Shown here in pieces: positions 22,059 to 41,755 of a stretch of 64,000 bases of DNA. The stretch is from Candidatus Latescibacterota bacterium (GTDB taxonomy: Bacteria > JAAXHH01), in the NCBI GenBank assembly GCA_022821085.1, contig JAJEEG010000007.1, positions 22,916 to 86,915 of the forward strand. The letters are read 5' to 3'. The stretch's first letter is position 1, and every line of letters starts with the position of its first letter. The notes under the pieces were generated by a model that saw nothing but the letters and a program-made list of their open reading frames with translations, searched no databases and was not told the origin of the DNA. The position numbers were made by a program, and so were the translations under genes.

Positions 22059-22061
22059 CCT

Positions 22062-22330: not shown

Positions 22331-22444
22331 CGTTCAACGGATTTTGGTAGCTGATGTCGCTGATGTAGCGGGTGTTACTGCTGTAGCGGGTATAGCGGGA
22401 CCTTGTAATCTCGACTATGACCGAGCAAGTGGGAATTCCCGCCC

Positions 22445-24481: not shown

Positions 24482-25963
24482 ATGCATTACCTCATAATTG
24501 CTGTATTGACTCTCGGTTTGTCCCTGTTGGGATGCGAGGGTAAGACAGGCCCCGCAGGTCCGACTGGTCCTTCCGGCGCCGCTGGCCCGGCAGGTCCGGC
24601 TGGCCCGCAGGGTTCGACGGGTCCGGCAGGCCCGGCAGGCCCCCAGGGTCCGGCTGGTGCTGACGGTGCCGATGGTGCTGCAGGCCCGGCTGGTCCCGCA
24701 GGTCCCCAGGGTGAGACTGGTCCGGCAGGTCCGCAGGGTGAGCAGGGTGAGCCAGGTGAAGCAGCTACACTTCCTCCTGGTTTAAGCCCGGATGAGATTC
24801 TCGGAATCCTCTCAGCAGACCATGTTGCTGCTATGGTTGTTGAACACTCCTCCGAAGCCTATGGTGGTTTGGCCGAGCTGACACCGGCAAGAATAGGGGA
24901 CGGTACGAGCATCCTTCTCAGAGTAGGCCAGGAAGCTACGGTCAAAGCTGTTGTCCGCACACAGGATGGCGCCATAGTTGAAGGTGCTGATCTGGTTTGG
25001 TCTATCGACGAGGAAGAGGAGAATATCTCGGTTGAAGATGGGGTTATCACTGCGCTTGCATCAAATTACAATATAGATGATGCCAAGTACAGTGCATCGA
25101 TGGTAAGCTTCAAGTCAGCTTCCCATCTCGTTGCCGGTGAGTTGTCGGTCATGGTTTCCAATGCGGTTGCCAAGGTCAAACTCAGCCAGGATAGTCTGAT
25201 CCCGTTGGCCATCAGTGAAACCACAATGATTACTGCCAGTGCGCTTGATGGTGATGATAAGCCGGTGCCTGATCTGGGTATGATGGGCAATTACGACTGG
25301 TCCAGCGATTCGGGTTCTGCCGGTGTTGCCGCTGATAAGCACGCTTCAGGCGAGATGAAAGGCAAGTTTATCGGTAAGGCCGGCAGTCAGGCAACGATTA
25401 CTGGAAAGAGCAGTGGCGACGCTTCCATTACCGCCGCTATCGAAGGTGCGTCGGCTTCCGTCGATGTCGCCGTTTCCGGTTCTAGCATCACCCGTACCAT
25501 TATCTACACCGACCCTGATACCCGTACTTTCACGTGGGACCGCGACCCGGCGGCTTCGGCGGCGTGGGAGGACGCAACCATAACTACCACCTTTGATGTC
25601 GAGTTGTACAATGCGATTTCTGACGCGCAAATCTCCAACTTCGATAATAGTGCTTTAACTCTCAATGTCAGTGGTAATAAGGCTTCGACAGTTGGGTTGC
25701 TAGCTACCACACCTAACGCCGCTGCAAATGGTGTAGTAACAGTGCAGGTTGCAGTTGCGAATTTTGACGCTGGGGACGCCTCCGCAACCCCAGCCGTACC
25801 ACCAGCTGGGACCGCCCTGGCCAACGCTACCACTCAACCGGCCGGCATTCACGAGACAGATGCCGGTTCCATGAGTTACATCGTAGAACTGAAGGTGAAT
25901 GGCGCGGTATCCAAGCGTATTCATTTCACGATAGCGTATGGTGCGGCACCACCGGCCGAGTAA
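24482..25963 (+). CDS. collagen-like triple-helix repeat lipoprotein with Ig-like domains (paralog 4 of 5)
   Basis: 493 aa. Signal [18 protein letters not shown], 25 G-X-Y triplets, Big_2-like segments ([22 protein letters not shown]; [15 protein letters not shown]...[15 protein letters not shown]) and a unique C-terminus. Confidence 0.9.
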
Positions 25964-25966
25964 CCT

Positions 25967-26235
25967 CGGGATAATCCGGGTCCCGTAGACAGGGCGCTGA
26001 CAGAGTCCTGTGGCACGTGGGGGAGGGGTGCCAACCCTTCCCCTATAAGCCAAGTTCCGAGTGACCCCCGGAGTTATCCCGACAGGGCAAGCAACATGTC
26101 AGCATCCGCCCTGCATTTGTCTCGGTCATTTCGTTACAACTTCCCGTTCGCCCTGAGTAGGAGCTTCGGCCACTGAAAAGGGCGATCGGTACCGAAGATA
26201 AGAAAAGCCCCGTTGAAGCATACGGGGCTTTTCTG
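25967..26235 (+). ncRNA. conserved structured 3'-UTR element, copy 4
   Basis: The conserved flanks are present. The variable hairpin is GGGGAGGG-gtgccaa-CCCTTCCCC. Confidence 0.6.
26202..26235 (+). terminator. intrinsic terminator of paralog 4
   Basis: gaaaagccccg-ttgaagcata-cggggcttttctg. Confidence 0.8.
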
Positions 26236-26497
26236 TGTTTAACGATATAATAGTTGGACCACCCGTCTCCCTCGCCAATCCCCTTACCAATTCTACGTAC
26301 CTGTCGTACCCGCTCCTACCTGATGTATCCGATTCATACCTGTAATACCCCGATCTCTTACCCGTCTTACCTCGCGATCCAACTGAATTACCCCATCCTA
26401 CCTGACGTATCCGATTCACACTCCCAGCACGTAACACTGCGTAACACCCGATTTCATCCGCCTTTGAACACACCAGCCGCCACGCCCTGAAGTTCCG

Positions 26498-26664
26498 CAT
26501 AATCATATTTAACTGAAAAAGTGCCCGATAAGACCTGAAATACGAGCAGTCTTGAGCCTGTTAATTCAAGTCAACCGATCAATTCGCGGGAAAGGAGGCG
26601 ATATAGGCAAGTTTCGTGTTTTCGTCATTCCTTTTAGTAGTGTTTCCATAAACGGGAGAACACA
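26498..26664 (+). promoter_or_regulatory. conserved upstream/leader block of paralog 5
   Basis: cataatcatatttaactgaaaaagtgcccgata...caattcgcgggaaaggaggcgatataggcaag...gtgtttccataaacgggagaacacaATG. Confidence 0.55.
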
Positions 26665-28134
26665 ATGCATTACCTCATAATTGCTGTATTGACTCTCGGT
26701 TTGTCCCTGTTGGGATGCGAGGGTAAGACAGGCCCCGCAGGTCCGGCTGGTCCGTCCGGCGCCGCCGGCCAGGCAGGTCCGGCTGGCCCGCAGGGTTCGA
26801 CGGGTCCGGCAGGTCCGGCTGGCCCGGCAGGTGCTGATGGTGCTGACGGTGCTGACGGTGCTCAGGGCCCGGCAGGTCCGGCAGGCCCAGCTGGCCCGGC
26901 AGGTGCTGATGGTGCGCAAGGTCCTCCAGGTCCGCAAGGTGAGAAGGGTGACACCGGTGAGCAGGGTCCGCAAGGTGAGAAGGGTGACACCGGTGAGCAG
27001 GGTCCGCAAGGTGAGAAGGGTGACACCGGCGAGCAGGGTCCTGTAGGTCCAGGTCTACCGATCGAGGGAATTGATCCCATCGAGCTGGCCCAGGCGGACC
27101 ACATCGCCTACTTGGTACATGATCCTTCTGACGATCCGCCGGAGGAAAAATCGGAAGCGCCGATCGATATCGTCTTAAGGGTCGGTGAAGAACGCAATGT
27201 CAAGGCTGCCGTCCGTGCACAGAGTGGCAAGATCCTTGAGAGCATTCCGGTAATGATTGGGATCCACAAGGATGAAAACGATGCCATCACCTTCGAAGAC
27301 GGCGTGCTAACCGCCGTCGGGGCCGGGTCAGCCGTTGTCAGGGCTGTGTCGGATTTGTCCGGGCTTGCTGGTGATATAAATGTCATGGTGACCAAGCCAA
27401 TCGCCAAGGTCGCTTTCATGGTCGGTGACCCTGCCGTTGCATTGAGCGAACCAGTCGTATTGGCCGTGAGCCAGACACATGACCAGGTGATAACCGCCGT
27501 GGCCCAAGATGAAGACGGCAAGGCAATTGCGCCGCGTTCCAACTGGTCCTGGGATTCCGGAACCGTAGCCTCCGTGGAGCAACAGAAGGATGCGGACGAC
27601 GCGCTCCTGATGATGGGTGCTGTCGTCAAGATCACCGGGGCGAGTGGCGGCGACGGCACGGTTATGGCGACGGCCGAAGGCGTGAGCGGCAGTATCGACG
27701 TGAGCGTGACCGGCCAGACCAAGACCGTTTTCATTAGAGCTTCGACCTCAAGTAACGGCAACACCTTTGTTTGGGATCGAGGTAGAGACTCTGACACCAG
27801 CACCCCAGCAATCGACGTAGCTTGGAATTACGCCAATACTCAATTCCAGGTGTTCCTGTACGACATCGTTTCCAATGAGAGGGTCATCGGTACGGTCAAT
27901 GTAGTATCAGAAACCGCTACTGTTGCTGCGGTCGATGCTGGTTCAGTAACCACGACACTCGCTGGAGTGGCAGCCCCACTTGTCACGGTTACACCCCTTC
28001 CTACTGACCCTGGTCAAACAGACCCGGCTACTTCCAATGCAGGAACAAAAACGTCGGTCGTTAAATTGACCGCTACCGGCGCCGATCCTGTTAACATCCT
28101 GTTCACTGTTAGGATCGTGAATGCGCCAGAATAA
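26665..28134 (+). CDS. collagen-like triple-helix repeat lipoprotein with Ig-like domains (paralog 5 of 5)
   Basis: 489 aa. It has the same signal peptide and about 37 G-X-Y triplets, including [12 protein letters not shown] three times. Ig-like segments include [16 protein letters not shown] and [28 protein letters not shown]. Confidence 0.9.
26938..27045. repeat. 36-nt tandem repeat x3 inside the collagen tract of paralog 5
   Basis: ggtgagaagggtgacaccggtgagcagggtccgcaa occurs three times (the third copy has 3 substitutions), encoding [12 protein letters not shown]. Confidence 0.85.
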
Positions 28135-29221: not shown

Positions 29222-32200
29222 ATGGTTTCCTTCTTCCAAAAACACAGCAGTCGTGGGATCTTCCGACGCATTGCCGCATCACTCCCTAAACCAGGTGCTG
29301 ACGCGCTAACGGATCGCTGGCACGCCGTGTTGCTCGTTTTCCTGTCCCTATCCCTGTTTTTTCCGCTGGTGTTTGCCTGCGGTAGGGACAATCCCACACA
29401 GTCTCGTTCGGCGACCGCGTTCCGCATCGTGGTTACACCGGAGACGGCAGACCTATCCTCCACCGGTGAAACGTTACGTCTCAGCGCCCGAGTACTGGAC
29501 AAAAGCGACCGGGAGGTTCCCGCATCCCCGGTTTCCTGGCGCAGCAGCGACGATCAGGTGGTTTCAGTGAGTGCCGACGGCCTGGTCACCGCGGTCGGCG
29601 AGGGCAGCGCTATCGTAATCGCCATGGCCGGACAGAAGACGGCCCAGGCGCGGGTGACGGTGTCGGATCCCGTGCGGCGGACGTTGACTGCCCTGTACAA
29701 AACCACGGGCGGCGAGAACTGGAAGAATAGCGTAAACTGGTTGAGCGACGAGCCCGTTCATCAATGGTACGGTGTGTCGACGGTCTCGTCCTCGAGCACG
29801 CCAGAGGTGCGAGCCCGAGCCAGCGTGGCCGGCGTGGCACTGAATTTGCCTGACAACGGCCTTACCGGTCCGATCCCGCCTGAGTTGGGCGAAATGGTCT
29901 TCCTTCGAGTGCTGGATCTTTCCGACAACGGTCATACCGGTACTATTCCTCCTGAACTGGGCAACCTGGTCCGGCTCGAAGTGCTGGACCTGTCCAACAA
30001 TGCTTTGACCGGATCCGTCCCGTCTGAACTGGGTGACCTGCCGGTCCTGAAGTCACTCCTGCTACACGGCAACACCGGGATGTTCGGTCCCCTGCCTGAC
30101 TCGTTCGTCCGGCTTACGGGCCTGGAAACCCTGGAACTGACGGGCACGGGTCTGTGCGCGCCTTCGGACGCGGGATTCCAAAGGTGGCTTGCCGGGATCG
30201 CGACCCGGCGGGGCGTACAGACTTGCGGATCGGGGACGGACCAGGACCGGCAGACACTGATCGCCCTGTACGAGGCGACGGACGGACCGAACTGGTCGAA
30301 CAATGCCAACTGGCTGAGCCAGGCGCCACTGGACCGCTGGTACGGCGTCTCGGCGACATCATCCGGCCGCGTGCGCAACCTGCATCTTGCGAACAACGGG
30401 TTGTCCGGTCCAATTCCGACCGCGCTGGGCAATCTCACCGCGCTGGTGTCTCTGGATCTCTCGGACAACCGGTTGACGGGCGTCATCCCGCCGGCCCTGT
30501 TTACCCTGGCCAATCTCCAGACGCTGGACCTGTCCGGAAACCTGTTCAACCAATCTGAATCGGACGACCGCGACGCCCTGGTGGCGCTGTACAATGCCAC
30601 CGACGGCCCGAACTGGGTGTACAGTACGAACTGGCTAAGCCAGGCACCGCTGGGAGATTGGTACGGGGTAACAACCGACGATACGGGCAGGGTGACGCAT
30701 CTTCAGCTGTATACAGTAAATGGCGAGGAGCGCGTCGACGACGTCGCCGGCAAGACCAGCAACGGGCTGTCCGGCAACCTTCCCCCGGAACTGGGCAACC
30801 TGGGCAGCCTGCAGCGTCTGTCTCTCAACTATAATTCATTGACGGGTCCCATTCCACCAGAGCTGGGAAACCTGAGTAACCTGCGACGCCTGGACCTTGA
30901 CGTCAACCAGTTGTCGGGCAATATCCCTTCCGAACTGAGCCGCTTGAGTAATCTGGAAAGCCTGGACCTTCGCCGCAACCAGTTAACCGGTCCCGTTCCC
31001 TCCTGGCTGGGTAACCTGAGCAACCTGAAGAACTGGTTGGACCTTGGATACAATCAACTGACAGGTCCCATTCCTTCGGAATTGGGCCGCCTGAGTAATC
31101 TGACATTCCTGGCACTCCGCGGTAATCAGTTGTCCGGCAATATCCCTCCGGAACTGGGCCGCATGAGAGATTTGGAAAGCTTGTATCTCCAAAATAACAT
31201 GTTGTCAGGCGCATTACCCTCGTCGCTGAGTAGTCTCACCAACCTGCAATTCCTGTGGCTGGGCAACACGCAGTTGTGTGCGCCGACAGACGCTGTGTTC
31301 CAGGCATGGCTCGCCGGGATACCGTACACAAGTGGCGTCGTGAACTGCGGTCTGGTGGGGCCGGAGCCGGGAAACGACCGGGCCGCCCTGGTGGCGCTGT
31401 ACAATGCCACCGATGGCCCGAACTGGGTGTATAGCACGAACTGGCTGAGCAATGCGCCGCTGGGAGATTGGTACGGGGTAACAACCGACGATACGGGCAG
31501 GGTGACGCATCTTCAGCTTTACACCGTAAATGGCGAGGAGCGCGTCGACGATGTTGCGGGCAAGGCCAGCAACGGCCTGTCCGGCAACCTCCCACCTGAA
31601 CTGGGTAACCTGGGCAGCCTTCAGCGCCTGTCTCTCAACTACAACGCGTTGACAGGCCCCATTCCGCCGGAACTGGGCAACCTGGCGAACCTGCGACGCC
31701 TGGACCTTGACGTCAACCAGTTGTCGGGCAATATCCCTTCCGAACTGAGCCGACTGAGTAATCTGGAAAGTCTGGACCTTAGCCGCAACCAATTAACCGG
31801 TCCTGTTCCCTCCTGGCTGGGAAATCTGAGCAACCTGACGAATTGGTTGGTCCTTGCTGACAACAAACTGACCGGTCCCATTCCTTCCGAACTGGGCAAC
31901 CTGAGCAAACTTCTAAGCCTGAACGTTGCTGGCAACCAGTTGTCCGGCGCGTTGCCCTCTTCGCTGGGTAACCTCACCTACTTGCGATGGCTGCGGCTGA
32001 GCAACAACGAGTTGACTGGCGCGTTACCTCCGTCGCTGAGTAATCTCACCAACCTGCAATACCTATATCTAGACAACACGCAGTTGTGTGCGCCGACAGA
32101 CACCGTGTTCCAGGCATGGCTCGGTGGGATTCCAAACAAAAGTAGCGTTGTGAACTGCGGCCTGGTGGGGCCGGAGCCGTCGAACGATCGCGCCGCCCTT

Positions 32201-35200
32201 GTGGCGCTGTACAACGCCACCGACGGCCCGAACTGGACGAACAATACGAACTGGCTGACCGATAAGCCGATCGGAGAGTGGTACGGAGTAGACACCAATG
32301 CAACGGGTCGGGTGACCCGTTTGGACTTGAGGAACAACGCACTGTCGGGTTCGATCTCTTCCGAACTGGGTCAATTGAATCAACTGAGTAGGCTGTGGCT
32401 TGGAGACAACATGCTATCGGGCTCGATCCCACCAGAATTGGGCAATCTGAGCAACCTTCATGGCCTGTATCTTTATAATAACATGATAACCGGTTCTATT
32501 CCGTCCGAACTGGGCCAGTTGAAGAACCTGCTTGACCTGTGGTTATGGTCCAATCGATTAACTGGCTCTATTCCGTCTGAACTGGGTCAGTTAAACAGAC
32601 TGGTAAAACTGATTCTCAGCTACAACAGACTTGCAGGTAGGATTCCGTCCGGACTGGGTAACCTGACGAACCTGGAATGGCTCGAACTCGAGGACAATCA
32701 GTTGTCCGGCAATATCCCCTCATCGCTGGGCAACCTGAGCAATCTGGAGCGCATGGAGCTCAACGACAATACCGCTCTTTCTGGAATCCTGCCCGGCACA
32801 CTCTCTGGTCTCGGCAATCTGAACAAACTGAATCTTCAAGGGACGGGTCTGTGCGCGCCGACTGACACTGCATTTCAAGCATGGCTAAGTGGAATTTCTG
32901 ATAAACAGGGCGTAGTGAACTGTACCTCGCCGCCCCCACCGCCGGGCGACCCGGACCGTGACGTCCTGGTGGCGCTGTACAACGCTACGGACGGCCCGAA
33001 CTGGACGAGAAACAACAACTGGCTGAGTGACAGACCGATAGGAGAGTGGTATGGCGTGTCCACTAACGCGGATGGGCGGGTGGATAGTCTGAGTCTTTTC
33101 CTAAACGGGTTGTCAGGAGGCATCCCTCCAGCACTGGGCAACTTGAGCAATCTGACGTACTTGCAGCTCCAAGTCAACGCGTTGACCGGCAGAATCCCTT
33201 CGTCACTGGGTAACCTGAGCAATCTCGACAGGCTGATTCTCAACGACAATCAGTTGTCCGGCAGTATCCCTTCATCACTGGGCAACCTGAGCAATCTACA
33301 AGAGTTGAGTCTCAACAACAACTCGTTGTCCGGCAACCTTCCTGCGACGTTGGGCAACCTGAGCAATCTGAACTGGCTTATTCTCAACGAGAACGCGTTG
33401 TCTGGCAGTATTCCTTCGTCCCTGGGCAACCTGAGCAATCTGCGAGAACTGCGGCTTAACGACAATCAGATGTCCGGCAGCCTTCCTACAACCCTGGGCA
33501 ACCTGAGTAATCTGCGAGAATTGTGGCTTTACAATAACACCGCTCTTTCTGGTTCCCTGCCCGGTACACTTGCCGGTCTCGGTCGCCTCAACGAACTGCG
33601 GCTTCAAGGCACCGGTCTGTGCGCGCCGACTGACACTGCATTTCAAGCGTGGCTCAGCGGGATTCCGGTGAAATCGGGGGTTGTTGACTGTACTGTCATT
33701 TCAGGATCGGACGACCGCGACGTCTTGGTAGCACTGTACAACGCCACAGATGGCCCGAACTGGGTGAGAAACGACAACTGGCTAAGTGACAGACCGATCG
33801 GAGAGTGGTTTGGCGTGTCCACCAACGCTGCAGGTAGGGTGACGCGTCTCAGGTTATACACAATATCCGACGATGATACATACACCACCAACGGTTTGAC
33901 TGGCAGCATCCCACCGGTGCTGGGTAATCTGAGCTATCTGCAAGATCTGCGGCTTCACACCAACAAGTTGTCAGGCAGTATCCCGCCGGAGTTGGGCAAC
34001 CTGCACAATCTGACTCGGCTCGATCTTGGAGACAATCAGTTGTCAGGCAGTATACCGCCGGAGTTGGGCAACCTGAGCAGCCTGACATATCTTGGGCTTT
34101 ACTTCAATCAGTTGTCAGGCAGTATACCTTCGCAACTGGGTAACCTGACCAGCCTGACTGATCTTTCCCTTCGCGCCAACACTGGACTGTCAGGTCCTCT
34201 GCCCGACACTTTCACAGATCTTGAGAATCTCAACAACCTGGCTGTGGATGGCACGGGGTTGTGCGCGCCTACAGACACCGCATTTCAGTCGTGGCTCGGG
34301 AGGATCCAGGGAAGAGTGGTAGGCGTCAGTAACTGCGATTCGTCGCCCCCGGACGACCCGGACCGCGATGTCCTGGTGGCGCTTTACAATGCCACCGACG
34401 GCCCGAACTGGGCGAACAATACGAACTGGCTGAGTGATTCGCCAATCGGAGAGTGGAACGGCGTGACCACCGACGACACCGGACGGGTGACACATCTCTG
34501 GTTATCTGGGGAGATTGACGACGCTGGTACAGTAGTCAGTCGAGGTGGGTTATCTGGCAGAATTCCATCGTCCCTGGGTGATCTGACTAAGCTTCAATAC
34601 CTGGGCCTTCCTGGCAACGCATTATCGGGAAACATTCCATCGGCCCTGGGCAACCTGGAAAATTTACGTAGTCTGCAACTTTGGGACAACCAGTTGTCGG
34701 GCGCGATCCCGTCCGGCCTAGGCAACCTGAACAATCTTGTTTGGTTGCAACTCAGCGACAACAGTTTATCTGGTCCAATCCCGCCCGCCCTGGGCAACCT
34801 GAGCAACCTGACGAACTTGCAGCTTCAAGACAACGCGTTGACAGGCAACATTCCATCGGCCCTGGGCAATCTGACTAACCTGCGTACTATGGGTCTTTAC
34901 CGTAACCAGTTGTCAGGTACAGTTTCGTCGGAACTGGGCAACCTGAGCAATCTGCAAAGTCTGTGGTTGCACCAGAATGCTGCCTTGTCCGGTCCCCTGC
35001 CCGACTCATTCACTGATCTCGATGAACTTCGAAGCCTGAATCTGGATGGCACAGATTTGTGTGCGCCTTCAAATGATGTTTTCCAAACCTGGCTACAGGG
35101 GATCGGAAACAAGAGTGGCGTTGTGGACTGCGAACCAGACCCACCTGGTCCGCCTGGCCTCCGTGGCATGCCTGGCCCTCGTGGCCTGCCAGGCCCGCCA

Positions 35201-35986
35201 GGTCTTCAGGGCCCACCCGGTCCTCAGGGCCCTGAAGGCCCGCCAGGTGAACCTGGCCCACCTGGTCCGCCTGGCTATCGTGGCGATACTGGCCCACCTG
35301 GTCCTCAGGGCCCACCTGGTCCTCAGGGCCCAGCAGGCCCGCCAGGCTCGTCTAGTCGGGTGGTAGTACCAGAGATTTCTTCGGACGCCGCGTTCCAGGA
35401 TTGGCTCGAAGCGCTTTTCAAGGAGCGAGGCATCGTGACTTGCGGCGAGCCTGGTCCTCCTGGGCCACAAGGTCCGCGCGGGCCTCGTGGCCTACCTGGC
35501 CCTCGTGGCCCTCGCGGCCCGGCTGGTCCGAGGGGGGCAGCGGGTTCAAAGGGTGAGCCTGGTCCGCATGGTCGTCAGGGCCCAGATGGTCCTGATGGCC
35601 CTGAAGGCCCGCCTGGGTCTGAAGGCCCTCAAGGCCCTCCAGGTCCTCCAGGACCGTCAGCAAGGGTGATAGCATCAGAGGAAGGATGGGCATCGGACGC
35701 CGCGTTACAGGCGTGGCTTGAGGCGTTTTTCCAGGACAGTGGCGTCGTGAACTGCGGTGAACCTGGCCCGCAAGGTCCTCCGGGCCCTCCAGGTCCTCCT
35801 GGTCCTCAGGGTGTACCCGGTCCTCCTGGTCCTCCTGGTCCGGCTGGGCCTCAAGGTCCTCCTGGTGAACCTGGCCCGGAGGGTCCGGCTGGGCCTCAAG
35901 GTCCTCCTGGTGAACCTGGTCCACAGGGTCCGCAGGGTGAACCCGGACCACCAGGCCCTCCTGGACCACCTGGTGATTCTGGATAA
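29222..35986 (+). CDS. giant surface lipoprotein: Big_2 domain, eight plant-type LRR modules and three C-terminal collagen-like tracts
   Basis: 2254 aa. The signal and lipobox read ...[11 protein letters not shown]. The Big_2 segment is [25 protein letters not shown]...[21 protein letters not shown]. There are eight modules. Each has an N-cap ([31 protein letters not shown]), 24-residue LRRs (L..L.L..N.LSG.IP..LGNLSNL) and, except module 2, a C-cap ([26 protein letters not shown]). G-X-Y tracts lie from about 35141 to the end. Confidence 0.9.
30565..32190. repeat. two tandem 810-nt LRR modules (modules 3 and 4), nearly identical over their first ~530 nt
   Basis: By eye, 30565-31090 versus 31375-31900 align with only scattered substitutions. 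Both encode [87 protein letters not shown]. Confidence 0.8.
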
Positions 35987-36081
35987 TAGGGGTTGCCAAA
36001 CGAAAATCATGCAGGACGAACTGATCAAAATGGCACTGTCTGCTGCCACCGGAGCCAGAACATTAAACAAGGAGTGAAGTA

Positions 36082-36693
36082 TTGAACCTCAAGACACTGC
36101 CGTATGCTGCCGTTTGCTGTCTTACACTGCTCGTTGTGTTCGCCGCGTGCGGTTCGGATGGCAAGCCCGTAACGACTGCGCCAACCGAGCCTGAGTCGCC
36201 TACACAGCCTGCTCCCCCAACGCCGGAACCTCCCCCGGATACCCCTTTCTCAGATTTGGAGCAGCGCATCGTGGCAGGCATCAACGCGCAGAGGATGCTA
36301 GGTGGCACGTGTGGCGGGGATGCCTTCGATCCTACGACCCCGGTTGCCTGGAACAATGATCTGGCCGAAGCCGCGAGGGTGCACATGGAGGACAATCTGG
36401 CGAACGACCTGTCCGCCGACCCCCATACCGGGTCGAACGGTTCGAGCGTCGGGGACCGGGTGACGGCCGCAAGCCCGGCCACGGCATGGCTCGTCGTAGG
36501 CGAGAATCTAGCCTACAACCGGGGGTCGCCGCGTAACGATATACCGGAGATCTGGGCAAAGGGATGGCACGAGTCGCCGGTCCACTGCCGGAACCAGCTC
36601 AATCCCGTGTTCAACCGGGTCGGGGTAAGTGTCGGCGTGAGGAATGCGCTGTTCGTTGGTGTAGTCGTCTTCGGCCAGAAAGCGGGTTCATAA
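36082..36693 (+). CDS. CAP/SCP/PR-1-like (YkwD-type) domain lipoprotein
   Basis: 203 aa with a TTG start. The lipobox reads LLVVFAACGS and is followed by a Pro/Thr-rich linker. IVAGINAQRM...VAWNNDLAEAARVHMEDN...GENLAY...WHESPVHCRNQLNPVFNRVGVSV fits the CAP domain. Confidence 0.7.
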   Translation: MNLKTLPYAAVCCLTLLVVFAACGSDGKPVTTAPTEPESPTQPAPPTPEPPPDTPFSDLEQRIVAGINAQRMLGGTCGGDAFDPTTPVAWNNDLAEAARVHMEDNLANDLSADPHTGSNGSSVGDRVTAASPATAWLVVGENLAYNRGSPRNDIPEIWAKGWHESPVHCRNQLNPVFNRVGVSVGVRNALFVGVVVFGQKAGS

Positions 36694-36710
36694 TCCGTCG
36701 GCTCATTCCC

Positions 36711-36740
36711 TTGACCCTCCCCGAGCCGCGCGCGTATAAT
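36711..36740 (+). promoter_or_regulatory. sigma70-like promoter (TTGACC-18 nt-TATAAT)
   Basis: TTGACC at 36711-36716 and TATAAT at 36735-36740. Downstream, the 5' region carries four tandem ccatcgRtW units (36796-36830) before the 36841 start. Confidence 0.45.
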
Positions 36741-36840
36741 CCGGGATGACGAGACGACCGGTCTTCCGGTCCGCCTATGGAACAGAACCTGACCATCGGA
36801 TCCATCGATTCCATCGGTACCATCGGTTCGCACACGCCTG

Positions 36841-37569
36841 TTGATCATCCCGGAGTCCGCCATTCCCTCGCGTACCCTGTTCATCGGCGACATTCACGGC
36901 TGTGCCCGTGAATTCGAACAACTGCTTTCCAAACTGGAGTTCCAGCACGACACGGATCTCCTGTACCTGACAGGCGACGCTTTCAGCCGGGGCCCCGACC
37001 CCGCAGGCGTATGGAAGCTGATCCGGGATACGGACGCGAGGATGATCCTCGGCAACCACGACTACCGCCTGGCGGACCGGCTTCGACAGCTCCTTTCCGG
37101 TGCCGCGGTACCCACCCGAAGCCCCGGTACCCTTCAGACCCTGGAAGCCCTCGCACCGTGCGCCGACGCCCTGATCCCCTGGCTGGAGTCGCTTCCCCTC
37201 TGGATCGACGAGCCCGATTTCCTCCTGGTCCACGCGGGCATCAACCCCAAAAAAGGCTTTCACGACACGACCGCGGAAGAGTTCCTCGTCATCCGTACCT
37301 GGCCGCCCGTCGAAGGCATCGTGGGACCCCGATGGCACGACGCGTACGATCCATCCGGCAAGCTGATCATATTCGGCCACGACGCTCCCGGCGGCCTCGT
37401 CATCAAGCGCCGGGACGACGGCTCCCCCTACGTGATCGGCCTGGACTCGGGATGTATCTATGGCGGGCAGCTGAGCGGGTACGTGCTGGAGGAAGACCGG
37501 TTGGTGCAGGTTGAATCCAGCCACCCCCGGAGCACACGACCGGATGCAGGACCCTCAACGCTGTCTTGA
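36841..37569 (+). CDS. metallophosphoesterase (ApaH/PrpE-like Ser/Thr phosphatase or diadenosine tetraphosphatase family)
   Basis: 242 aa. It has the motifs LFIGDIHGC, LTGDAFSRGPD, GNHD, VHAG and GHD. Confidence 0.8.
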   Translation: MIIPESAIPSRTLFIGDIHGCAREFEQLLSKLEFQHDTDLLYLTGDAFSRGPDPAGVWKLIRDTDARMILGNHDYRLADRLRQLLSGAAVPTRSPGTLQTLEALAPCADALIPWLESLPLWIDEPDFLLVHAGINPKKGFHDTTAEEFLVIRTWPPVEGIVGPRWHDAYDPSGKLIIFGHDAPGGLVIKRRDDGSPYVIGLDSGCIYGGQLSGYVLEEDRLVQVESSHPRSTRPDAGPSTLS

Positions 37570-37724
37570 TCCGTGCCCGGATGACGCACGCCCCCCTATT
37601 TGCCTTCGAAAGTTTTTATTCTACGAGATTAAGTGAAAGTCCCCTGACTAACCTTATATAGCCACCTTGTTCGGGAATATGCACCAGGTTCGGGGAGGAA
37701 ATATTAAGGAGATAGGCTGAGATC

Positions 37725-37877
37725 ATGTCGACCGAATGCACAAACCACGAAGGACGGATCGGACGCCTGGAAGTCAACAATGATCAGATAGGCAAGCGCC
37801 TGTCCCGGATAGAGACGGTAGTCATCGGCCAGTTGGTCATGACCGTCGCAATCCTCATAAAATCGTTTATCTCGTAA
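37725..37877 (+). CDS. small XhlA-like protein (coiled-coil followed by a C-terminal TM helix)
   Basis: My own translation gives MSTECTNHEGRIGRLEVNNDQIGKRLSRIETVVIGQLVMTVAILIKSFIS (50 aa, below the ORF-track cutoff). It lies in an AT-richer pocket. The AAGGAG SD is rather distant. Confidence 0.4.
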   Translation: MSTECTNHEGRIGRLEVNNDQIGKRLSRIETVVIGQLVMTVAILIKSFIS

Positions 37878-37923
37878 TCCAATACTAAGGTACACACCAA
37901 AAGAACTGAAAAGGGGAATTCAA

Positions 37924-38139
37924 ATGGAATCGATACCTTCGTGGTTGCCAGCGGTTGCTGCCATACTATTGATCGCTGTTATCGGGGCTGTAGGAAAACT
38001 GTGCCTTTGGATGGGGAAGAGAGAGGCAATAGAAAGTGGAATCTTAACGACGCTTGAAGACATCAAGGAAGATATCCGTACGATCCGGATTGCGATTTCG
38101 GACCTAGTAACCGGCAACGATTCCAACCCCGGTCAATGA
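37924..38139 (+). CDS. small membrane protein (N-terminal TM helix plus amphipathic helix)
   Basis: 71 aa: MESIPSWLPAVAAILLIAVIGAVGKLCLWMGKREAIESGILTTLEDIKEDIRTIRIAISDLV. An AGGGGA SD lies 8 nt upstream. Confidence 0.45.
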   Translation: MESIPSWLPAVAAILLIAVIGAVGKLCLWMGKREAIESGILTTLEDIKEDIRTIRIAISDLVTGNDSNPGQ

Positions 38140-38196
38140 GATTCAGGAACCACTGGCACCGCGGAAATATGGCGTAATGTTTTGGGAGGGAATGAA

Positions 38197-38481
38197 ATGT
38201 CCGAGTCAGGTTGGTGGCAGCGCCACGGCGCGGTCTTCACATCGATAATCACCCTTATTTCAATACTGACGTATTTGCACGTTTCATTAGGTGCCATAAG
38301 GGATGAATTGAGAAGTGAAACGGGTAGCTTGAGAACCGAAATGGGTAGCTTGAGAACCGAAATCAAAGCGGAAATCAAAGATCTGCGGGCATCGCTGGAC
38401 CGGGTGGAGACAAAGGTAGATGAGGTCAGGGGATACTTGAGATTCAACACATCCGCACCACTGGACGGACCACCCCCATAG
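38197..38481 (+). CDS. small membrane protein (N-terminal TM helix plus coiled-coil)
   Basis: ORF 38182..38481. A GGGAGGG SD precedes ATG 38197. The TM helix is AVFTSIITLISILTYLHVSLGAI. The heptad region contains an in-frame 21-nt duplication (gggtagcttgagaaccgaaat x2, giving GSLRTEM/GSLRTEI). Confidence 0.45.
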   Translation: MSESGWWQRHGAVFTSIITLISILTYLHVSLGAIRDELRSETGSLRTEMGSLRTEIKAEIKDLRASLDRVETKVDEVRGYLRFNTSAPLDGPPP

Positions 38482-38544
38482 GAGCAGATACAGACCATGC
38501 CGGCCGAAGCTACAGCCTGCCGGCATCGTTCAAGCGTTCAGGCA

Positions 38545-39639
38545 TCAGACGTGCCAGATGTACAGATCCCGGTTTGACAGCGGGAGATCTACCCATGCGC
38601 CTCCGCGCCGGTGGCTTTCGGCGACGGCGATGCAGGCTTCCGTGATGTGGTGTGCGATCTCGACGTGTCCCAGGCTTTGATCGCCTGATTCGTACGCGCG
38701 GACGAGGTCTTCCATGCAGGAAACTACAGTGCTCTTCGGCGTAACGAATTCGAACGGCGTCTCCTCCCAGGCGCTTCGTCCTTTGCGATCGTCCCGCCCA
38801 TCGATCGGCGCCCGCCGCAACGACGCGCCGGCCCCGTTGTTCAGTGACCGGATGGCGCCTTCGGTCCCGATGATCTCGTACTCCCATCCCGCCGCGGGGA
38901 TCGACCATGCGCGGACACCGTTCTCGAATTCGAGTTCGTACGTCGCGATCGGATCGTAGGGGATGTGGTCGCCTTCGATGACGTAGTCCCGGGGGTCGAT
39001 CTCGCCGCGCACGGAACGGATGACTGGATCGCCGATCAGCCAGGAGAGCGTGTCGATGGAATGGATGTGACCGTGCATCAGGGATGACCGCGCGTAGTGG
39101 ATGGCCGCGCTGGGTTCGCCCACGTCGCCCCGCAGGACCGCGTCCCGCACCACGCCGTACCGGTCGTCGAACCTGCGCAGCACGCCCGTGTTGAACACCG
39201 TTCCGTTCTTCAGGACGGCGTCGTGGATGTCGTCGGCCGCTGCCATGGAACTGGCCATGGCCTTCTCCACGTAAAGCATGGGCACGCCCATTTCCGCCAG
39301 CGCGACGGCCAGCTCGGCATGGGAATCGCCGCGGAATGACGCGTCCGGCGCCTCACGGGCTGGTTTCTGCAGTCCCGATGCGGTGGTGCATACGGCAACC
39401 ATATCGGGGCGCTCCTTCTGCACCATGTCCCGGAAATCCTCGTACAGCGCGTGGACGCCCCAGCGCCTGGCAAAGTCCTCCCTGCGTTCGGAGCGCAGGT
39501 CGCAGCCGGCGGCGATCTCCAGCCGTTCGCTCGCTTGGCAGGCCGCCGCGACAGAATAGGGCAGAGGCGTATGTCCCTCGTCGTCGATCGTACTGCCCAT
39601 GCGCCCCAGGCCGATGATCCCTACGCGATAGGTTTTCAT
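38545..39639 (-). CDS. Gfo/Idh/MocA family oxidoreductase
   Basis: 364 aa. The N-terminus is MKTYRVGIIGLGRMGS and the EKA motif is YVEKAMASSMAAADDI. Confidence 0.85.
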   Translation of the reverse strand: MKTYRVGIIGLGRMGSTIDDEGHTPLPYSVAAACQASERLEIAAGCDLRSERREDFARRWGVHALYEDFRDMVQKERPDMVAVCTTASGLQKPAREAPDASFRGDSHAELAVALAEMGVPMLYVEKAMASSMAAADDIHDAVLKNGTVFNTGVLRRFDDRYGVVRDAVLRGDVGEPSAAIHYARSSLMHGHIHSIDTLSWLIGDPVIRSVRGEIDPRDYVIEGDHIPYDPIATYELEFENGVRAWSIPAAGWEYEIIGTEGAIRSLNNGAGASLRRAPIDGRDDRKGRSAWEETPFEFVTPKSTVVSCMEDLVRAYESGDQSLGHVEIAHHITEACIAVAESHRRGGAWVDLPLSNRDLYIWHV

Positions 39640-39691
39640 GGTTTCCGTCGGGCATTCTGGCGTTCGAAACCCGCTCGTTTCCTCCTGACTG

Positions 39692-40072
39692 TCAGCACTT
39701 CATCTTATCGGCATGACTGTGTGGTTGAGAAATGACGAGGAATACGAGATCTTCCTCTCCAGGGTTTTCCAACCGGTGTGGTGTTTTGGGGGGCACATGA
39801 ATGGCGCTACCTTCCGGCACCCTGTACGTCTCCTCCCCGAGTTGAACAGAGGCAACTCCTTGCAACACATAGAATAACTGCTGCGCTTCGCTGTGATAGT
39901 GCATCTCTTCCACGCCTCCTTTTGGAACCCTTTCTTTAATTACGCTCAGGGAAGCCGTATTCAAAAGGTGCCATCCATCACAGTGCTTGCCCCATTTATA
40001 ATGTGCCGCATTACCTGGATTGATAACCATAATGGTCCTGAAAGAATACCTATTGCGATACGATAGGTTCAA
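39692..40072 (-). CDS. cupin domain protein
   Basis: 126 aa. The cupin motifs are MHYHSEAQQLFYVLQG and GSAIHVPPKTPHRLEN. An internal ATG at 40030 is an alternative start. Confidence 0.75.
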   Translation of the reverse strand: MNLSYRNRYSFRTIMVINPGNAAHYKWGKHCDGWHLLNTASLSVIKERVPKGGVEEMHYHSEAQQLFYVLQGVASVQLGEETYRVPEGSAIHVPPKTPHRLENPGEEDLVFLVISQPHSHADKMKC

Positions 40073-40347
40073 GCAGCCTGCGCCATCGCCGGACGTCTTT
40101 CAGTCAAACCCGCCAGACGCTCTTGATTGAAGATAGAACGGGACCGGAGACAGGGCAAAAACAATCTCCTCCCTTCCGGACCATCATGGCGCCGGCGAGG
40201 GCCGTCGAAAGCGCCGGCGAAGCGCCGTTGAAGCGTCTGCGAATTGTATTGACAGGCCGGTGGTGTCGGTTTAGCATGGCCTTACCTCATTCCCCCCTTT
40301 AAAACGCGTGTCACTATCAAAGCTTAAGCAACCTCAGGAGACGGATC

Positions 40348-41733
40348 ATGGCGTCGCTACCCACCACGAACAAGGGCTGGCTCGAACTCGGCAACCAGTA
40401 CCTCTTGAGACATCCGATGCGGACCGCGCCGCTGGTTCCCGAACGCGGTGACGGGCTCTACATGTGGGACGTGGAAGGCCGGCGTTTCATCGATTTCCAA
40501 TCGGGTCAATTGTGCGTAACCCTGGGCCATTCCCACCCGGAATACGTGAAGGCCCTCTGCGACCAGGCCCATAAGATCATCCAGGTGGGAACGACCTTCA
40601 TCGCGCCGTCGGAGGTGCTGCTGGCCAAGAAGATGGCCGAAATCGCGCCGGACCCGCTGCAGAAGTCCTTCTTTGCCTGTACGGGATCCGAATCCAACGA
40701 GATGGCCCTGCGCCTCGTGCGGAAGTACACGGACCGCTTCGAGGTGATCGCCCTCATGCGCGGCTACCACGGCCAGTCCTACGGCAGCGCGTCCATCACC
40801 GGCCGGGGCGGCATGCTTCGGGAAGGTTACGGCCCCATGCCCACGGGCGCCTCGTTCATCCCGACGCCCTACGAATACCGCTGCCAGTTCTGCCGGGACG
40901 AAGCCTGCTGCAACCTGGGATGCGCGGACGCGGCGGAGAACGTGATCGACTCGTCCACCTCCGGACGGCCCGCGGCCTTCTTCTTCGAACCGCTCATGAG
41001 CGCGGCGGGGCAGATCGTGCCCTCCAAGGAGTGGATCCAGCGGATCGTGGAAATCTGCCGCGAACGGGACATCCTGACCGTCGCGGACGAGGCCCTGACG
41101 TGCTTCGGCCGGACGGGCAAGTGGTTCGCCTTCGAGCACTTCGATTTCGTGCCCGACATCGTGACCTGCTCAAAGGGACTGGGAGGCGCCGTGCCCCTAT
41201 GCGCGGTCATGACCAGCGCGGAGATCGCGGACGCCGCGGTGGCCAAGGGATTCATGCCCTTCTCGTCCCACGCCGGGGACCCGCTCCTCTGCGAGACCGG
41301 ACTGGCCAATATCGAAATCGTCGATCGCGAGAACCTGGTGGAAAACGCCCGGGTCGTGGGCAACTACTTCATGGACCGGCTCAAGGTCATGGAGGAAACC
41401 TACGAGATCGTGGGCGAGGCACGCGGCCTGGGCCTTTGCCTGGGGCTCGAACTGGTGACGGACAAGCAGAGCCGGGAGCCCAATTTCGAAGGCGCCGCCA
41501 TGGTGACGGAGTACTGCTACGAGAACGGGCTGTGGCTGCCCATCGTGCCCCGGATGCTCAACAAGGATCCGCTCAGCCTGCGTTTCATGGAGCTGTCGGG
41601 TTCCCAGGTCCTGCGGTTCATGCCGCCGATCACCATCACCGAAGCCCAGATCGACGAATCCCTCGAGATCATCGAGGCCGGTGTGCGCATCGCCGAAGAA
41701 AGAACGGCGCGCGTGGCGCCGGCGGCGGTGTAG
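40348..41733 (+). CDS. class-III (omega) aminotransferase, PLP-dependent
   Basis: 461 aa. GSESNEMALRLVRKY, FFFEPLMSAAGQIVPSKEW, ADEALTCFGRTGKWFAFEH and the CSKGLGG context (PLP lysine) are typical of the family. Confidence 0.85.
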   Translation: MASLPTTNKGWLELGNQYLLRHPMRTAPLVPERGDGLYMWDVEGRRFIDFQSGQLCVTLGHSHPEYVKALCDQAHKIIQVGTTFIAPSEVLLAKKMAEIAPDPLQKSFFACTGSESNEMALRLVRKYTDRFEVIALMRGYHGQSYGSASITGRGGMLREGYGPMPTGASFIPTPYEYRCQFCRDEACCNLGCADAAENVIDSSTSGRPAAFFFEPLMSAAGQIVPSKEWIQRIVEICRERDILTVADEALTCFGRTGKWFAFEHFDFVPDIVTCSKGLGGAVPLCAVMTSAEIADAAVAKGFMPFSSHAGDPLLCETGLANIEIVDRENLVENARVVGNYFMDRLKVMEETYEIVGEARGLGLCLGLELVTDKQSREPNFEGAAMVTEYCYENGLWLPIVPRMLNKDPLSLRFMELSGSQVLRFMPPITITEAQIDESLEIIEAGVRIAEERTARVAPAAV

Positions 41734-41755
41734 GCGTCGCTGCAGCCGACTGCCC

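What the first reader, a model, noticed from the sequence alone, without database searches (positions are those of the whole stretch)
29222..35986. 2254-aa chimeric lipoprotein combining a Big_2 domain, eight plant-type LRR modules and three collagen tracts
Seen in sequence:
- A lipobox N-terminus is followed by one Big_2 domain.
- Eight LRR modules follow. Their N-cap ([11 protein letters not shown]....[13 protein letters not shown]) and 24-residue repeats (L..L.L..N.LSG.IP..LGNLSNL) look like plant LRR-RLK ectodomains. All but module 2 are closed by a Cys-containing cap ([23 protein letters not shown]).
- About 280 C-terminal residues are dominated by GPP-rich G-X-Y repeats.

Established knowledge: plant-specific-type LRRs and collagen repeats both occur in bacteria, mostly as host-interaction or eukaryote-like proteins.

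Inference: fusing an LRR recognition array to a collagen stalk on a lipoprotein anchor suggests a trimeric, stalked adhesin or receptor. I am not aware of this architecture having been characterised.
Basis: partly seen in the sequence, partly recalled or inferred. Interest (0 to 1): 0.7.

Follow-up and report, generated by a model that had tools for sequence, protein, structure and literature searches.

The report
LRR lipoprotein with a collagen tail
A marine symbiont-type bacterium encodes a real 2254-residue surface lipoprotein of eight plant-style leucine-rich-repeat modules; that module array is common in metagenomes, but its C-terminal tail of three collagen segments was found in no other protein I could search, and its function is untested.

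Summary
ORF 29222-35986 (+) encodes a lipobox, one Big_2 domain, eight capped LRR modules and three G-X-Y tracts of 23, 24 and 25 triplets.

The LRRs are plant-type by sequence and by fold. Plant receptor-kinase ectodomains are the top PDB hits, and an AF2 model of one module has pLDDT 91.

The capped multi-module LRR lipoprotein is not new. 4432 scored proteins match at E<=1e-10, and 117 of the top 120 carry at least two N-caps. The closest relative (53% identity) ends right after its last cap.

The collagen tail is the new part. No LRR+collagen protein appeared in three word-index searches, an exhaustive phmmer of 1.84 billion representatives, 177 fetched loci or the literature.

The tail looks native:
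- The two linkers between tracts are degenerate C-caps (23 bits against a cap HMM; best of 1000 shuffles 7.2).
- Linker GC3 matches the rest of the gene.
- No repeat sits at the junction.
- A separately deposited assembly of the same sample carries the same 2254-aa gene.

Best reading (inferred): an extracytoplasmic multivalent LRR binding protein, trimerised by its C-terminal collagen, involved in host or matrix interaction. This is a new variant of known kinds, of moderate interest.

The parts
29222..35986 (+). Complete ORF, 2254 aa plus stop
   Evidence: A GAGGAG Shine-Dalgarno-like motif lies 12-17 nt upstream of the ATG. The same 2254-aa gene is called on ENA ERZ23491428 scaffold_9.
29222..29380 (+). 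Signal peptide with lipobox (LVFA|C53). The N-region [16 protein letters not shown] is homologous to that of P0001.
   Evidence: Pattern match. The Cys and the following [10 protein letters not shown] are conserved in P0001. 36 of the top 120 homologs carry a lipobox-like pattern when T is allowed at -1, and many of these are followed by C-G-[KR]-D-[SN]-P-T.
29462..29662 (+). Big_2 (bacterial Ig-like) domain, aa 81-147
   Evidence: Pfam PF02368, E 1.8e-8.
29669..30241 (+). LRR module 1 (N-cap, at least 4 repeats, two-Cys C-cap)
30242..30562 (+). LRR module 2 (N-cap, about 3 repeats, no C-cap)
30563..31357 (+). LRR module 3. Nt 30709-30877 differ between two assemblies.
   Evidence: Stretches of modules 3 and 4 are 82-93% identical in DNA at an 810-nt offset.
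31373..32167 (+). LRR module 4
32183..32932 (+). LRR module 5 (7 regular repeats)
32951..33700 (+). LRR module 6 (7 regular repeats)
33710..34345 (+). LRR module 7
34358..35140 (+). LRR module 8; its C-cap runs directly into collagen
   Evidence: AF2 pLDDT 91.4 and pTM 0.88, with the cap helix at model residues 243-250. Foldseek top hits are plant LRR-RLKs.
35147..35353 (+). Collagen tract 1 (23 G-X-Y triplets; contains RGD at aa 2020-2022)
35354..35443 (+). Linker 1: a degenerate C-cap (..[22 protein letters not shown]) with a single Cys2074 at position -1 of tract 2
   Evidence: 23.3 bits against an HMM of the 7 full caps; the best of 1000 shuffles is 7.2. GC3 is 0.63. A helix is predicted, at low confidence.
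35444..35659 (+). Collagen tract 2 (24 triplets; the most charged, 27% D/E/K/R)
35660..35755 (+). Linker 2: a degenerate C-cap (..[23 protein letters not shown]) with a single Cys2178
   Evidence: 23.7 bits. A 21-nt exact match joins 35738-35758 to the module 3 cap at 31331-31351. GC3 is 0.66.
35756..35983 (+). Collagen tract 3 (25 triplets) and the C-terminus ...GPPGDSG. There is no anchor or sorting domain.
   Evidence: The last 31 codons are independently joined to the downstream gene in Logan contig SRR16351690_73746.
16755..28134 (+). Context: tandem array of five paralogous lipoproteins, each built as lipobox, collagen, then Ig-like head
36082..36693 (+). Context: CAP/SCP-domain lipoprotein 95 nt downstream

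Best explanation
The gene encodes an extracytoplasmic, N-terminally lipid-anchored protein of a bacterium whose closest relatives are sponge and coral MAGs labelled Latescibacterota or Gemmatimonadota.

After one Ig-like spacer, each chain carries eight separately capped plant-type LRR solenoids. Their variable concave faces are the ligand-binding units.

At the end away from the anchor, three collagen-like segments of about 20 nm each zip three chains into a homotrimer. Each segment is preceded by a cap or cap-derived amphipathic helix ending in a Cys. I propose this element nucleates and registers the triple helix, and that the two unpaired Cys form inter-chain disulfides.

The result would be a bundle of up to 24 LRR modules that binds by avidity. 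The likely targets are host-cell or matrix components or other cells. The triple helix itself may also be presented to a collagen-rich host matrix.

Shown: the domains, their order, the plant-type fold, the cap-derived linkers, the Cys arithmetic, and the absence of the tail in relatives.

Inferred: lipidation, surface exposure, trimerisation, disulfides and ligands.
For: - Domains and order.
- Plant-type LRR fold.
- Variability concentrated at concave-face positions.
- Lipobox conserved in relatives, together with a shared post-Cys motif.
- Collagen tracts are uninterrupted, 23-25 triplets long and 50-68% Pro at X/Y. From established collagen chemistry, this favours a stable triple helix without hydroxylation.
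- Each tract follows a cap or degenerate cap. The cap region is helical in the confident model.
- Of 17 Cys, 1 is in the lipobox, 14 pair within caps, and 2 are lone Cys at position -1 of tracts 2 and 3.
- The same locus carries five more collagen-bearing lipoproteins and a CAP-domain lipoprotein, so the region is a surface-protein island.
- LRR eukaryote-like repeat proteins are enriched in sponge-associated MAGs, with Latescibacterota among the lineages encoding a high proportion of them, and are linked to host association (PMC8163846; PMC12993501).
- The nearest LigA relatives are MAGs that I take to be from coral and sponges, judging by isolate names.
Against: - No expression, localisation or binding data exist.
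- The host of the sample (SAMN22237343) is unknown to me.
- With the ATG start, the lipobox Cys is at position 53, beyond the usual 15-35 window. P0001 has T at position -1.
- No recognised trimerisation domain is present. The tail-only AF2 model is uninformative (pLDDT 48.6).
- One Cys per chain per level cannot make a complete cystine knot.
- With the anchor at one end and the trimer knot at the other, the topology has no characterised precedent.
- The tail is seen in one population only, so it could be a recent and functionally neutral addition.
Confidence: 0.45

Rival explanations
1. The collagen tail acts mainly as a mimic or ligand rather than an oligomerisation device. It imitates or intercalates with host collagen, or engages host collagen or RGD receptors, while the LRR array has a separate role. 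This reading can coexist with trimerisation.
For: - The composition is GPP-rich and animal-like, unlike the Ala-rich tracts of the five neighbouring lipoproteins.
- An RGD sits inside tract 1 at aa 2020.
- Sponge mesohyl is collagen-rich, and no collagenase genes were identified in the sponge MAGs surveyed (PMC8163846).
- From my own knowledge, Scl1 of Streptococcus binds integrins through its collagen region.
Against: - A single RGD in 2254 residues is about what chance gives (my estimate is roughly 0.5 expected).
- No GxxGER-type integrin motif is present.
- The host is unknown.
- There are no binding data.
Confidence: 0.2
2. The protein is a structural component of a cell coat or biofilm matrix. 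Together with the five collagen-stalked lipoproteins, it would build a fibrous nap or mediate bacterium-bacterium cohesion, with no specific host target.
For: - It clusters with five lipoproteins built as lipobox, collagen, then Ig-like head.
- A relative genome also has a collagen lipoprotein about 9 kb upstream of its LRR giant.
- Homologous LRR arrays are fused to many different extracellular domains, including SLH, dockerin, FN3, proteases and T9SS CTDs (Pfam lists).
- From my own knowledge, BclA-type collagen naps are known in Bacillus.
Against: - LRR solenoids with hypervariable concave faces are typical of specific ligand binding.
- There is no evidence of co-expression.
- About 1.1 kb of non-coding sequence, with a terminator-like hairpin, separates the array from this gene.
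Confidence: 0.15
3. The protein is not lipid-anchored. It is either cleaved by signal peptidase I (VFA|C) and released, or it remains periplasmic.
For: - The Cys is at position 53.
- V-F-A is also an AXA-like signal peptidase I site.
- P0001 has T at position -1.
- No surface-export system can be assigned. No T9SS CTD is present.
Against: - The Cys and the following G-[KR]-D-[SN]-P-T motif are conserved across many homologs from different MAGs.
- By standard dimensions, a chain of about 100 nm when extended cannot fit in a periplasm.
Confidence: 0.12
4. The LRR-collagen junction is an assembly artefact, or the tail is a recent non-functional read-through.
For: - The tail was not found in any other genome.
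- Short-read assemblies of this sample break in and around the locus.
- The two assemblies disagree over 27 nt in module 3.
- Both full assemblies probably derive from the same sample.
Against: - The linkers inside the tail are homologous to this gene's own C-caps, including a 21-nt exact match.
- Linker GC3 is 0.63-0.66, against 0.625 for the caps. Low GC3 is confined to the G-X-Y tracts, as in the other collagen genes.
- No repeated k-mer of 21 nt or more lies between 34955 and 35291.
- The ORF stays open for 279 further codons.
- ENA scaffold_9 has an identical junction.
- A Logan contig joins the tail end to the downstream gene.
Confidence: 0.06

Closest known systems
Uncharacterised multi-module capped LRR giant (lipo)proteins of marine and host-associated MAGs, for example P0001 on OX638340.1
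   Same: - Same lipobox plus [10 protein letters not shown], Big_2 domain, N-cap, 24-residue repeats and two-Cys C-cap.
- 53% identity over 86% of the query.
- 117 of the top 120 homologs have at least 2 N-caps, with a median of 6.
   Different: P0001 and the paralogs or orthologs in L164 and L165 have no collagen; P0001 stops right after its last cap (GVVNCQ*). None of the listed homologs carries PF01391.
Plant LRR receptor-kinase and receptor-like protein ectodomains (RGFR1/At4g26540, GSO1, MIK2, FLS2, HAESA/HSL1, PGIP)
   Same: - The 24-residue plant-specific LRR consensus.
- A superhelical solenoid with an N-terminal helix cap and a Cys-containing C-cap.
- Best sequence and fold matches.
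   Different: - No transmembrane helix or kinase.
- The N-cap has no Cys pair and does not hit LRRNT_2.
- Many short capped solenoids on a string, rather than one long solenoid.
- A bacterial lipobox.
Bacterial collagen-like surface proteins (Streptococcus Scl1/Scl2, Legionella Lcl, Bacillus BclA)
   Same: Uninterrupted G-X-Y tracts on an exported protein, with a non-collagen element directly N-terminal of each tract, as the V domain is in Scl (Scl organisation from my own knowledge).
   Different: - All NCBIfam scores are far below cut-off: SclB 91 against 325, Lcl 77 against 500, SclA 55 against 400.
- No LPXTG anchor and no V or C1q-like domain.
- The collagen is at the end away from the anchor.
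- Pro content is much higher than in typical bacterial collagens (own knowledge).
- The tract is split in three by cap-derived linkers.
Animal 'defence collagens' (collectins, ficolins, C1q) and lamprey VLRB; a functional analogy only, from my own knowledge
   Same: Recognition domains made multivalent by a collagen or Cys-rich oligomerising segment. VLRB also uses capped LRR modules.
   Different: - No homology is claimed.
- In those proteins the collagen is N-terminal of the recognition heads. Here it is C-terminal, and the chain is also lipid-anchored at its N-terminus.
Xanthomonas LRR type III effectors XopAE, XopAC and XopL, and Leptospira LRR proteins (LIC_11051, LIC11098)
   Same: They are bacterial proteins with plant-type LRRs. 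They give partial NCBIfam and PDB hits.
   Different: - Scores are below cut-off: 408 against 600, 315 against 450, 175 against 500, and 253 against 1000.
- Those proteins are single-array effectors or adhesins without caps of this type, collagen or a lipobox of this kind.

Membership tests
Plant-specific (PS) class of LRR | 24-residue repeat LxxLxxLxLxxNxL(S/T)GxIPxxLGx | tested here: met
   42 repeats were found; 30 of 41 spacings are exactly 24 residues. The consensus over 31 of them is sNLxxLxLxxNqL(S/T)[10 protein letters not shown].
Plant-specific (PS) class of LRR | Closest solved structures are plant LRR ectodomains | tested here: met
   phmmer against PDB gives At4g26540 at 7e-157, then GSO1, MIK2 and FLS2. 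Foldseek gives TMq 0.76-0.81 to MIK2, FLS2 and HSL1.
Plant LRR-RLK/RLP | LRRNT_2 N-cap with a Cys pair, plus a transmembrane helix with or without a kinase | tested here: not met
   No PF08263 and no kinase hit. The N-caps contain no Cys.
Bacterial collagen-like proteins (Pfam Collagen PF01391) | Long uninterrupted G-X-Y scoring above the Pfam gathering score | tested here: met
   114.5 bits against 27.2. Tracts of 23, 24 and 25 triplets.
Bacterial collagen-like proteins | Formation of a triple helix or trimer | not testable with these tools
   Only monomer prediction is available, and the tail model has pLDDT 48.6.
Scl1/Scl2, Lcl equivalogs | NCBIfam equivalog score above cut-off, and an LPXTG anchor for Scl | tested here: not met
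   Scores are 91 against 325, 55 against 400 and 77 against 500. The C-terminus is ...GPPGDSG, with no sorting motif.
Bacterial lipoprotein | Lipobox pattern [LIVMFWSTAG]2-[LIVMFYSTAGCQ]-[AGS]-C after an uncharged h-region | tested here: met
   [11 protein letters not shown] matches. The Cys is conserved in P0001 and in 36 of 120 homologs when T is allowed at position -1.
Bacterial lipoprotein | Cys within residues 15-35 of the precursor (PROSITE rule) | tested here: not met
   The Cys is at position 53 from the ATG. An in-frame GTG at 29327 would put it at 18, but would remove the basic n-region that is homologous to P0001.
Bacterial lipoprotein | Actual lipidation and localisation | not testable with these tools
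   This needs palmitate labelling, globomycin treatment or surface shaving.
T9SS cargo | C-terminal sorting domain (PF18962 / TIGR04183) | tested here: not met
   It is absent from the Pfam and NCBIfam hits, although some homologs have it and a SprA-like gene lies at 55997-62326.
Xanthomonas XopAE/XopAC/XopL effectors | NCBIfam score above cut-off | tested here: not met
   408 against 600, 315 against 450, and 175 against 500.
Eukaryote-like repeat proteins of sponge/coral symbionts (operational category) | An LRR-domain protein encoded by a host-associated symbiont | tested here: inconclusive
   The LRR part is met. Host association is inferred only from the nearest LigA relatives, at 90% identity: isolates Plut_88884 and SB0665_bin_8, which I read from their names as coral and sponge MAGs. 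The source of SAMN22237343 was not identified.

The most novel reading that the evidence does not exclude
A bacterium has independently built a molecule like a 'defence collagen' or VLR. It would be an LRR-based multivalent recognition protein, trimerised by collagen helices. Trimer nucleation and registration would come from a new element derived from an LRR C-cap that lost one Cys: an amphipathic helix plus a lone Cys directly before G-X-Y. The collagen tracts would have arisen in situ from the Pro-rich inter-module linker and then been duplicated.
Probability: 0.25. Interest if true: 0.65.

Novelty: new variant of a known kind. Interest (0 to 1): 0.45.

Why it matters
Eukaryote-like LRR proteins are among the genes most enriched in sponge and coral symbionts. 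How they are exported, displayed and used is still unclear; PMC8163846 notes that few lineages encode classical secretion systems.

This gene and its many relatives carry a conserved lipoprotein signal, which suggests a simple route to the cell envelope.

The collagen tail adds a plausible way to make the LRR array multivalent, or to connect it to a collagenous host matrix.

If the cap-derived helix-Cys element really nucleates a triple helix, it would be a compact new trimerisation tag for recombinant bacterial collagens.

If none of this holds, the gene is still a clear example of modular shuffling in a very large, uncharacterised family of extracellular LRR proteins.

Tried and rejected
1. 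Looking for the architecture elsewhere. All of the following found nothing.
- The full-length search, the C-terminal 538-aa search and the 191-aa junction search returned either LRR proteins without collagen or collagen proteins without LRR.
- An exhaustive phmmer of aa 1925-2254 against 1.84 billion representatives gave a top 150 with no protein carrying both.
- A six-frame scan of 177 fetched loci found none.
- A JGI metagenome scan with the linker motifs found none.
- A JGI metagenome scan with the exact 42-nt junction found none.

2. A genome scan with the C-terminal 355 aa returned only generic collagen genes. A single-sequence scan with the N-terminus was too strict and was wasted. The alignment-based scan worked.

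3. Exact look-ups of the 2254-aa product and of a version started at the GTG both returned 'not on record'. The gene was then found indirectly, through its neighbour.

4. Recent copying of the tail from the five upstream collagen genes is rejected. DNA identity is only 66-77%, and Pro codon usage differs: CCT dominates in the tail and CCG in the upstream genes.

5. Foreign origin of the whole tail, judged from its low GC3, is rejected. The low GC3 is confined to the G-X-Y tracts, and the linkers match the rest of the gene.

6. T9SS cargo, a Xanthomonas-type effector and an Scl/Lcl equivalog are all rejected on scores.

7. No Rfam family or tRNA was found in the window.

8. The sigma-70-like promoter hit that overlaps the ATG was given no weight. 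The count does not exceed the shuffles, and the consensus may not apply to this phylum.

9. The AF2 model of the tail as a single chain was uninformative.

10. Searching the paper library for the sample identifiers found nothing relevant.


Full report
**What is there.** The window holds one uninterrupted ORF at 29222-35986 (+) of 2254 codons. Pfam finds one Big_2 domain (aa 81-147), dense LRR matches and Collagen (PF01391, 114.5 bits against a 27.2 cut-off).

My own parse gives the following:
- Eight N-caps of the form L..LY..T.G..W....W....W.GV.
- Seven two-Cys C-caps of the form LCAP...FQ.WL......GVV.C. Module 2 lacks one.
- Three uninterrupted G-X-Y tracts of 23, 24 and 25 triplets at aa 1976-2044, 2075-2146 and 2179-2253.

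A regex for the repeat core finds 42 repeats, nearly all spaced exactly 24 residues apart. Their consensus, computed over 31 of them, is sNLxxLxLxxNqL(S/T)[10 protein letters not shown]. Variation is concentrated in the concave-face x positions, at about 3 bits, against at most 0.6 bits at most scaffold positions.

**The LRRs are plant-type.** A sequence search of module 6 against all PDB chains is led exclusively by plant receptor-kinase ectodomains: At4g26540 (listed in PDB as RGFR1) at 7e-157, then GSO1, MIK2, FLS2 and PEPR1.

An AF2 model of module 8, built with the other modules as its alignment, is confident (pLDDT 91.4, pTM 0.88). It shows an N-terminal helix cap, a regular strand and short-helix solenoid, and a C-cap helix. 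Foldseek places it with MIK2, FLS2 and HSL1/HAESA at TMq 0.76-0.81. The protein is not a member of the plant receptor family itself: it has no LRRNT_2 hit, no Cys in the N-cap, no transmembrane helix and no kinase.

**Source organism and context.** The window's LigA is 90% identical to LigA of MAGs labelled Candidatus Latescibacterota or Gemmatimonadetes (isolates Plut_88884 and SB0665_bin_8, among others). I read these isolate names as coral and sponge MAGs. The more distant hits fall in other phyla of the FCB group.

The same genome, or a near-identical population, is public as ENA ERZ23491428 (KELL22-1_SAMN22237343) and in the Logan assembly of SRR16351690. I could not find what the sample is.

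The gene sits in a surface-protein island:
- Five tandem paralogous lipoproteins lie upstream, at 16755-28134. In each, a canonical lipobox (..LGC) is followed at once by 25-37 collagen triplets and then Ig-like heads.
- A CAP/SCP-domain lipoprotein lies 95 nt downstream.
- A tyrosine recombinase borders the island at 14856-15824.
- Island genes have GC3 of 0.44-0.68, against 0.85-0.88 for SecDF, LigA and the aminotransferase.

**What is common and what is not.** The capped multi-module LRR design is very common. 4432 of the 8000 scored candidates match at E<=1e-10. Of the top 120 homologs, 117 have at least two N-caps (median six, maximum 16) and 91 have at least two Cys-caps.

These arrays are fused to many different extracellular domains: Big_2, PPC, FN3, Calx-beta, cadherin-like, subtilases, reprolysins, dockerin, SLH and T9SS CTD (Pfam lists). 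36 of 120 start with a lipobox-like pattern (allowing T at -1), in many of them followed by a shared motif, C-G-[KR]-D-[SN]-P-T.

The closest relative is P0001, at 53% identity, on the 3.8-Mb MAG chromosome OX638340.1. It has the same signal, Big_2 and module types, but ends GVVNCQ* directly after its last cap. Two further relatives also lack collagen.

No protein with both LRR and collagen appeared in any of these searches:
- The full-length, C-terminal or junction searches.
- The top 150 of an exhaustive phmmer of aa 1925-2254 against 1.84 billion representatives, where a cap plus comparable collagen should have ranked high.
- 177 fetched loci.
- Two JGI metagenome scans.
- The paper library.

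These searches list only top hits, so rare or short-collagen versions could have been missed.

**Is the tail real?** Five lines of evidence argue that it is native.

1. The two linkers between collagen tracts (..[22 protein letters not shown] and ..[23 protein letters not shown]) are homologous to this gene's own C-caps. They score 23.3 and 23.7 bits against an HMM of the seven full caps, while the best of 1000 shuffled linkers is 7.2. A 21-nt exact match also joins 35738-35758 to the module 3 cap.
2. The low GC3 of the tail (0.42) is confined to the G-X-Y tracts, as in the other collagen genes. The linkers have GC3 of 0.63-0.66, the same as the caps at 0.625.
3. No k-mer of 21 nt or more is repeated between 34955 and 35291, so there is no repeat at the junction through which a mis-join would arise.
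4. ENA scaffold_9 (471 kb) is a separate assembly, because its ends fall inside the window. It carries the same 2254-aa gene. It differs only by 27 nt at 30709-30877, where module 3 carries the module-4 variants, changing three residues.
5. A Logan contig is 100% identical to window 35890-46693. It joins the last 31 collagen codons to the downstream genes and starts exactly at a 38-nt internal repeat.

Caveats remain. The assemblies probably share reads, I could not inspect coverage, and residues 512, 539 and 552 are uncertain.

**How it most likely works.** What follows is inference unless a call is cited.

The N-terminus is a probable lipoprotein signal. The pattern is met and conserved, but with the ATG start the Cys is at position 53. 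By standard dimensions, eight solenoids plus about 62 nm of triple helix (0.286 nm per residue over 216 residues) cannot fit in a periplasm. The protein should therefore be surface-exposed or released. No T9SS CTD or other C-terminal sorting signal is present.

The LRR modules are the binding units. The collagen tracts are long, uninterrupted and 50-68% Pro at X/Y, which favours a stable triple helix without hydroxyproline.

Each tract is preceded by a cap or degenerate cap ending in Cys. In the confident model this region is an amphipathic helix packed on the solenoid. In the linkers there is no solenoid to pack against, so I propose the helices associate between chains and set the register.

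The Cys arithmetic fits this idea: 17 Cys in total, of which 1 is in the lipobox, 14 are in caps and 2 are lone Cys at position -1 of tracts 2 and 3. The lone Cys are therefore candidates for inter-chain disulfides. The outcome would be a trimer presenting up to 24 LRR modules.

It is either a trimerising knot away from the membrane, a collagen mimic presented to the surroundings, or both.

LRR eukaryote-like proteins are enriched in sponge symbionts, with Latescibacterota among the lineages that encode a high proportion of them. Few lineages encode classical secretion systems for them (PMC8163846; PMC12993501). A conserved lipobox offers a simple answer for this family.

**Origin of the tail.** This part is speculative. 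The sequence after the last cap (EPDPPGPPG...) resembles the Pro-rich inter-module linkers ([13 protein letters not shown] and [11 protein letters not shown]). The later units are cap-derived linker plus collagen. This is compatible with in-situ expansion of a linker into G-P-P repeats, followed by duplication of [cap + collagen] units and loss of the first cap Cys. The module 3/4 pair (stretches 82-93% identical in DNA at an 810-nt offset) shows that the gene evolves by tandem duplication.

**Verdict.** The LRR giant belongs to a large, uncharacterised family, and the collagen tail is a new variant found nowhere else that I could search. Function and oligomeric state are inferred. Interest is moderate (0.45).

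Noticed in passing
window 16755-18155, 18528-19940, 20658-22058, 24482-25963, 26665-28134 (+): A tandem array of five paralogous lipoproteins. All share a near-identical signal and lipobox ([12 protein letters not shown]). 25-37 G-X-Y triplets begin right after the lipidated Cys, followed by Big_2/Ig-like domains and divergent C-terminal heads. Each gene is followed by a conserved 3' flank of about 280 nt. They look like constant-stalk, variable-head surface proteins. A relative genome has a similar protein ([12 protein letters not shown]...) with a different head (L163 705-1811).
   Followed up: partly
window 30709-30877: Two public assemblies of the same population differ here by 27 nt (T512A, S539A, S552A). 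The ENA scaffold carries the module-4 variants inside module 3, between two exact repeats of 62-65 nt. One of the two assemblies therefore mis-resolved the repeat.
   Followed up: yes
window 14856-15824 (-) and 16000-36700: A tyrosine recombinase borders a region of about 20 kb that is lower in GC. Its surface-protein genes have GC3 of 0.44-0.68, against 0.85-0.88 in housekeeping genes. This may be an acquired island or a set of relaxed or fast-evolving genes. All five paralogs face the same way, so simple inversion switching is unlikely.
   Followed up: partly
window 46805-48208, 48100-48735, 48732-49448 (+): A candidate anti-phage pair, HEC-03B (an AAA_15/DUF3696 ATPase, PADLOC E 1.3e-126) and HEC-03A (E 6e-29), is followed directly by an RNA ligase gene.
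   Followed up: partly
N-termini of homologs P0018, P0032, P0034, P0036, P0039, P0049-P0052 and others: Many homologs from different MAGs share a lipobox with T at position -1 and a conserved post-Cys motif, C-G-[KR]-D-[SN]-P-T. This could be a lineage-specific lipoprotein sorting or export signal.
   Followed up: no
window 35837-35874 and 35882-35919: A 38-nt exact direct repeat, 45 nt apart, lies inside collagen tract 3. It is an in-frame substrate for slippage that would gain or lose five triplets, and it is the point where the k=31 Logan assembly breaks.
   Followed up: yes
window 854-3187 (-): A 777-aa ORF in which a MurG-like glycosyltransferase (aa 67-397, below the equivalog cut-off) is fused to a C-terminal region with a weak HEAT/NblB-like match.
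   Followed up: no
window 55997-62326 (+): A 2109-aa protein with a SprA_N match (the T9SS translocon family). This suggests the organism has type IX secretion, although the LRR-collagen protein lacks a T9SS C-terminal domain.
   Followed up: no
window 22445-24019 (-): A GC-rich segment (64.5%) interrupts the collagen-lipoprotein array. It holds a 524-aa ORF with weak ketoacyl-synthase N- and C-terminal domain matches.
   Followed up: no
aa 960, 1215, 1471 and 1685 of the ORF (C-caps of modules 4-7): The caps contain D-T-[AV] at ...PTDTAFQ.... This fits the D-[ST]-[AILVMT] O-glycosylation motif known from Bacteroidota (own knowledge). The protein also has 45 N-x-S/T sequons. Whether this phylum glycosylates such sites is unknown.
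   Followed up: no
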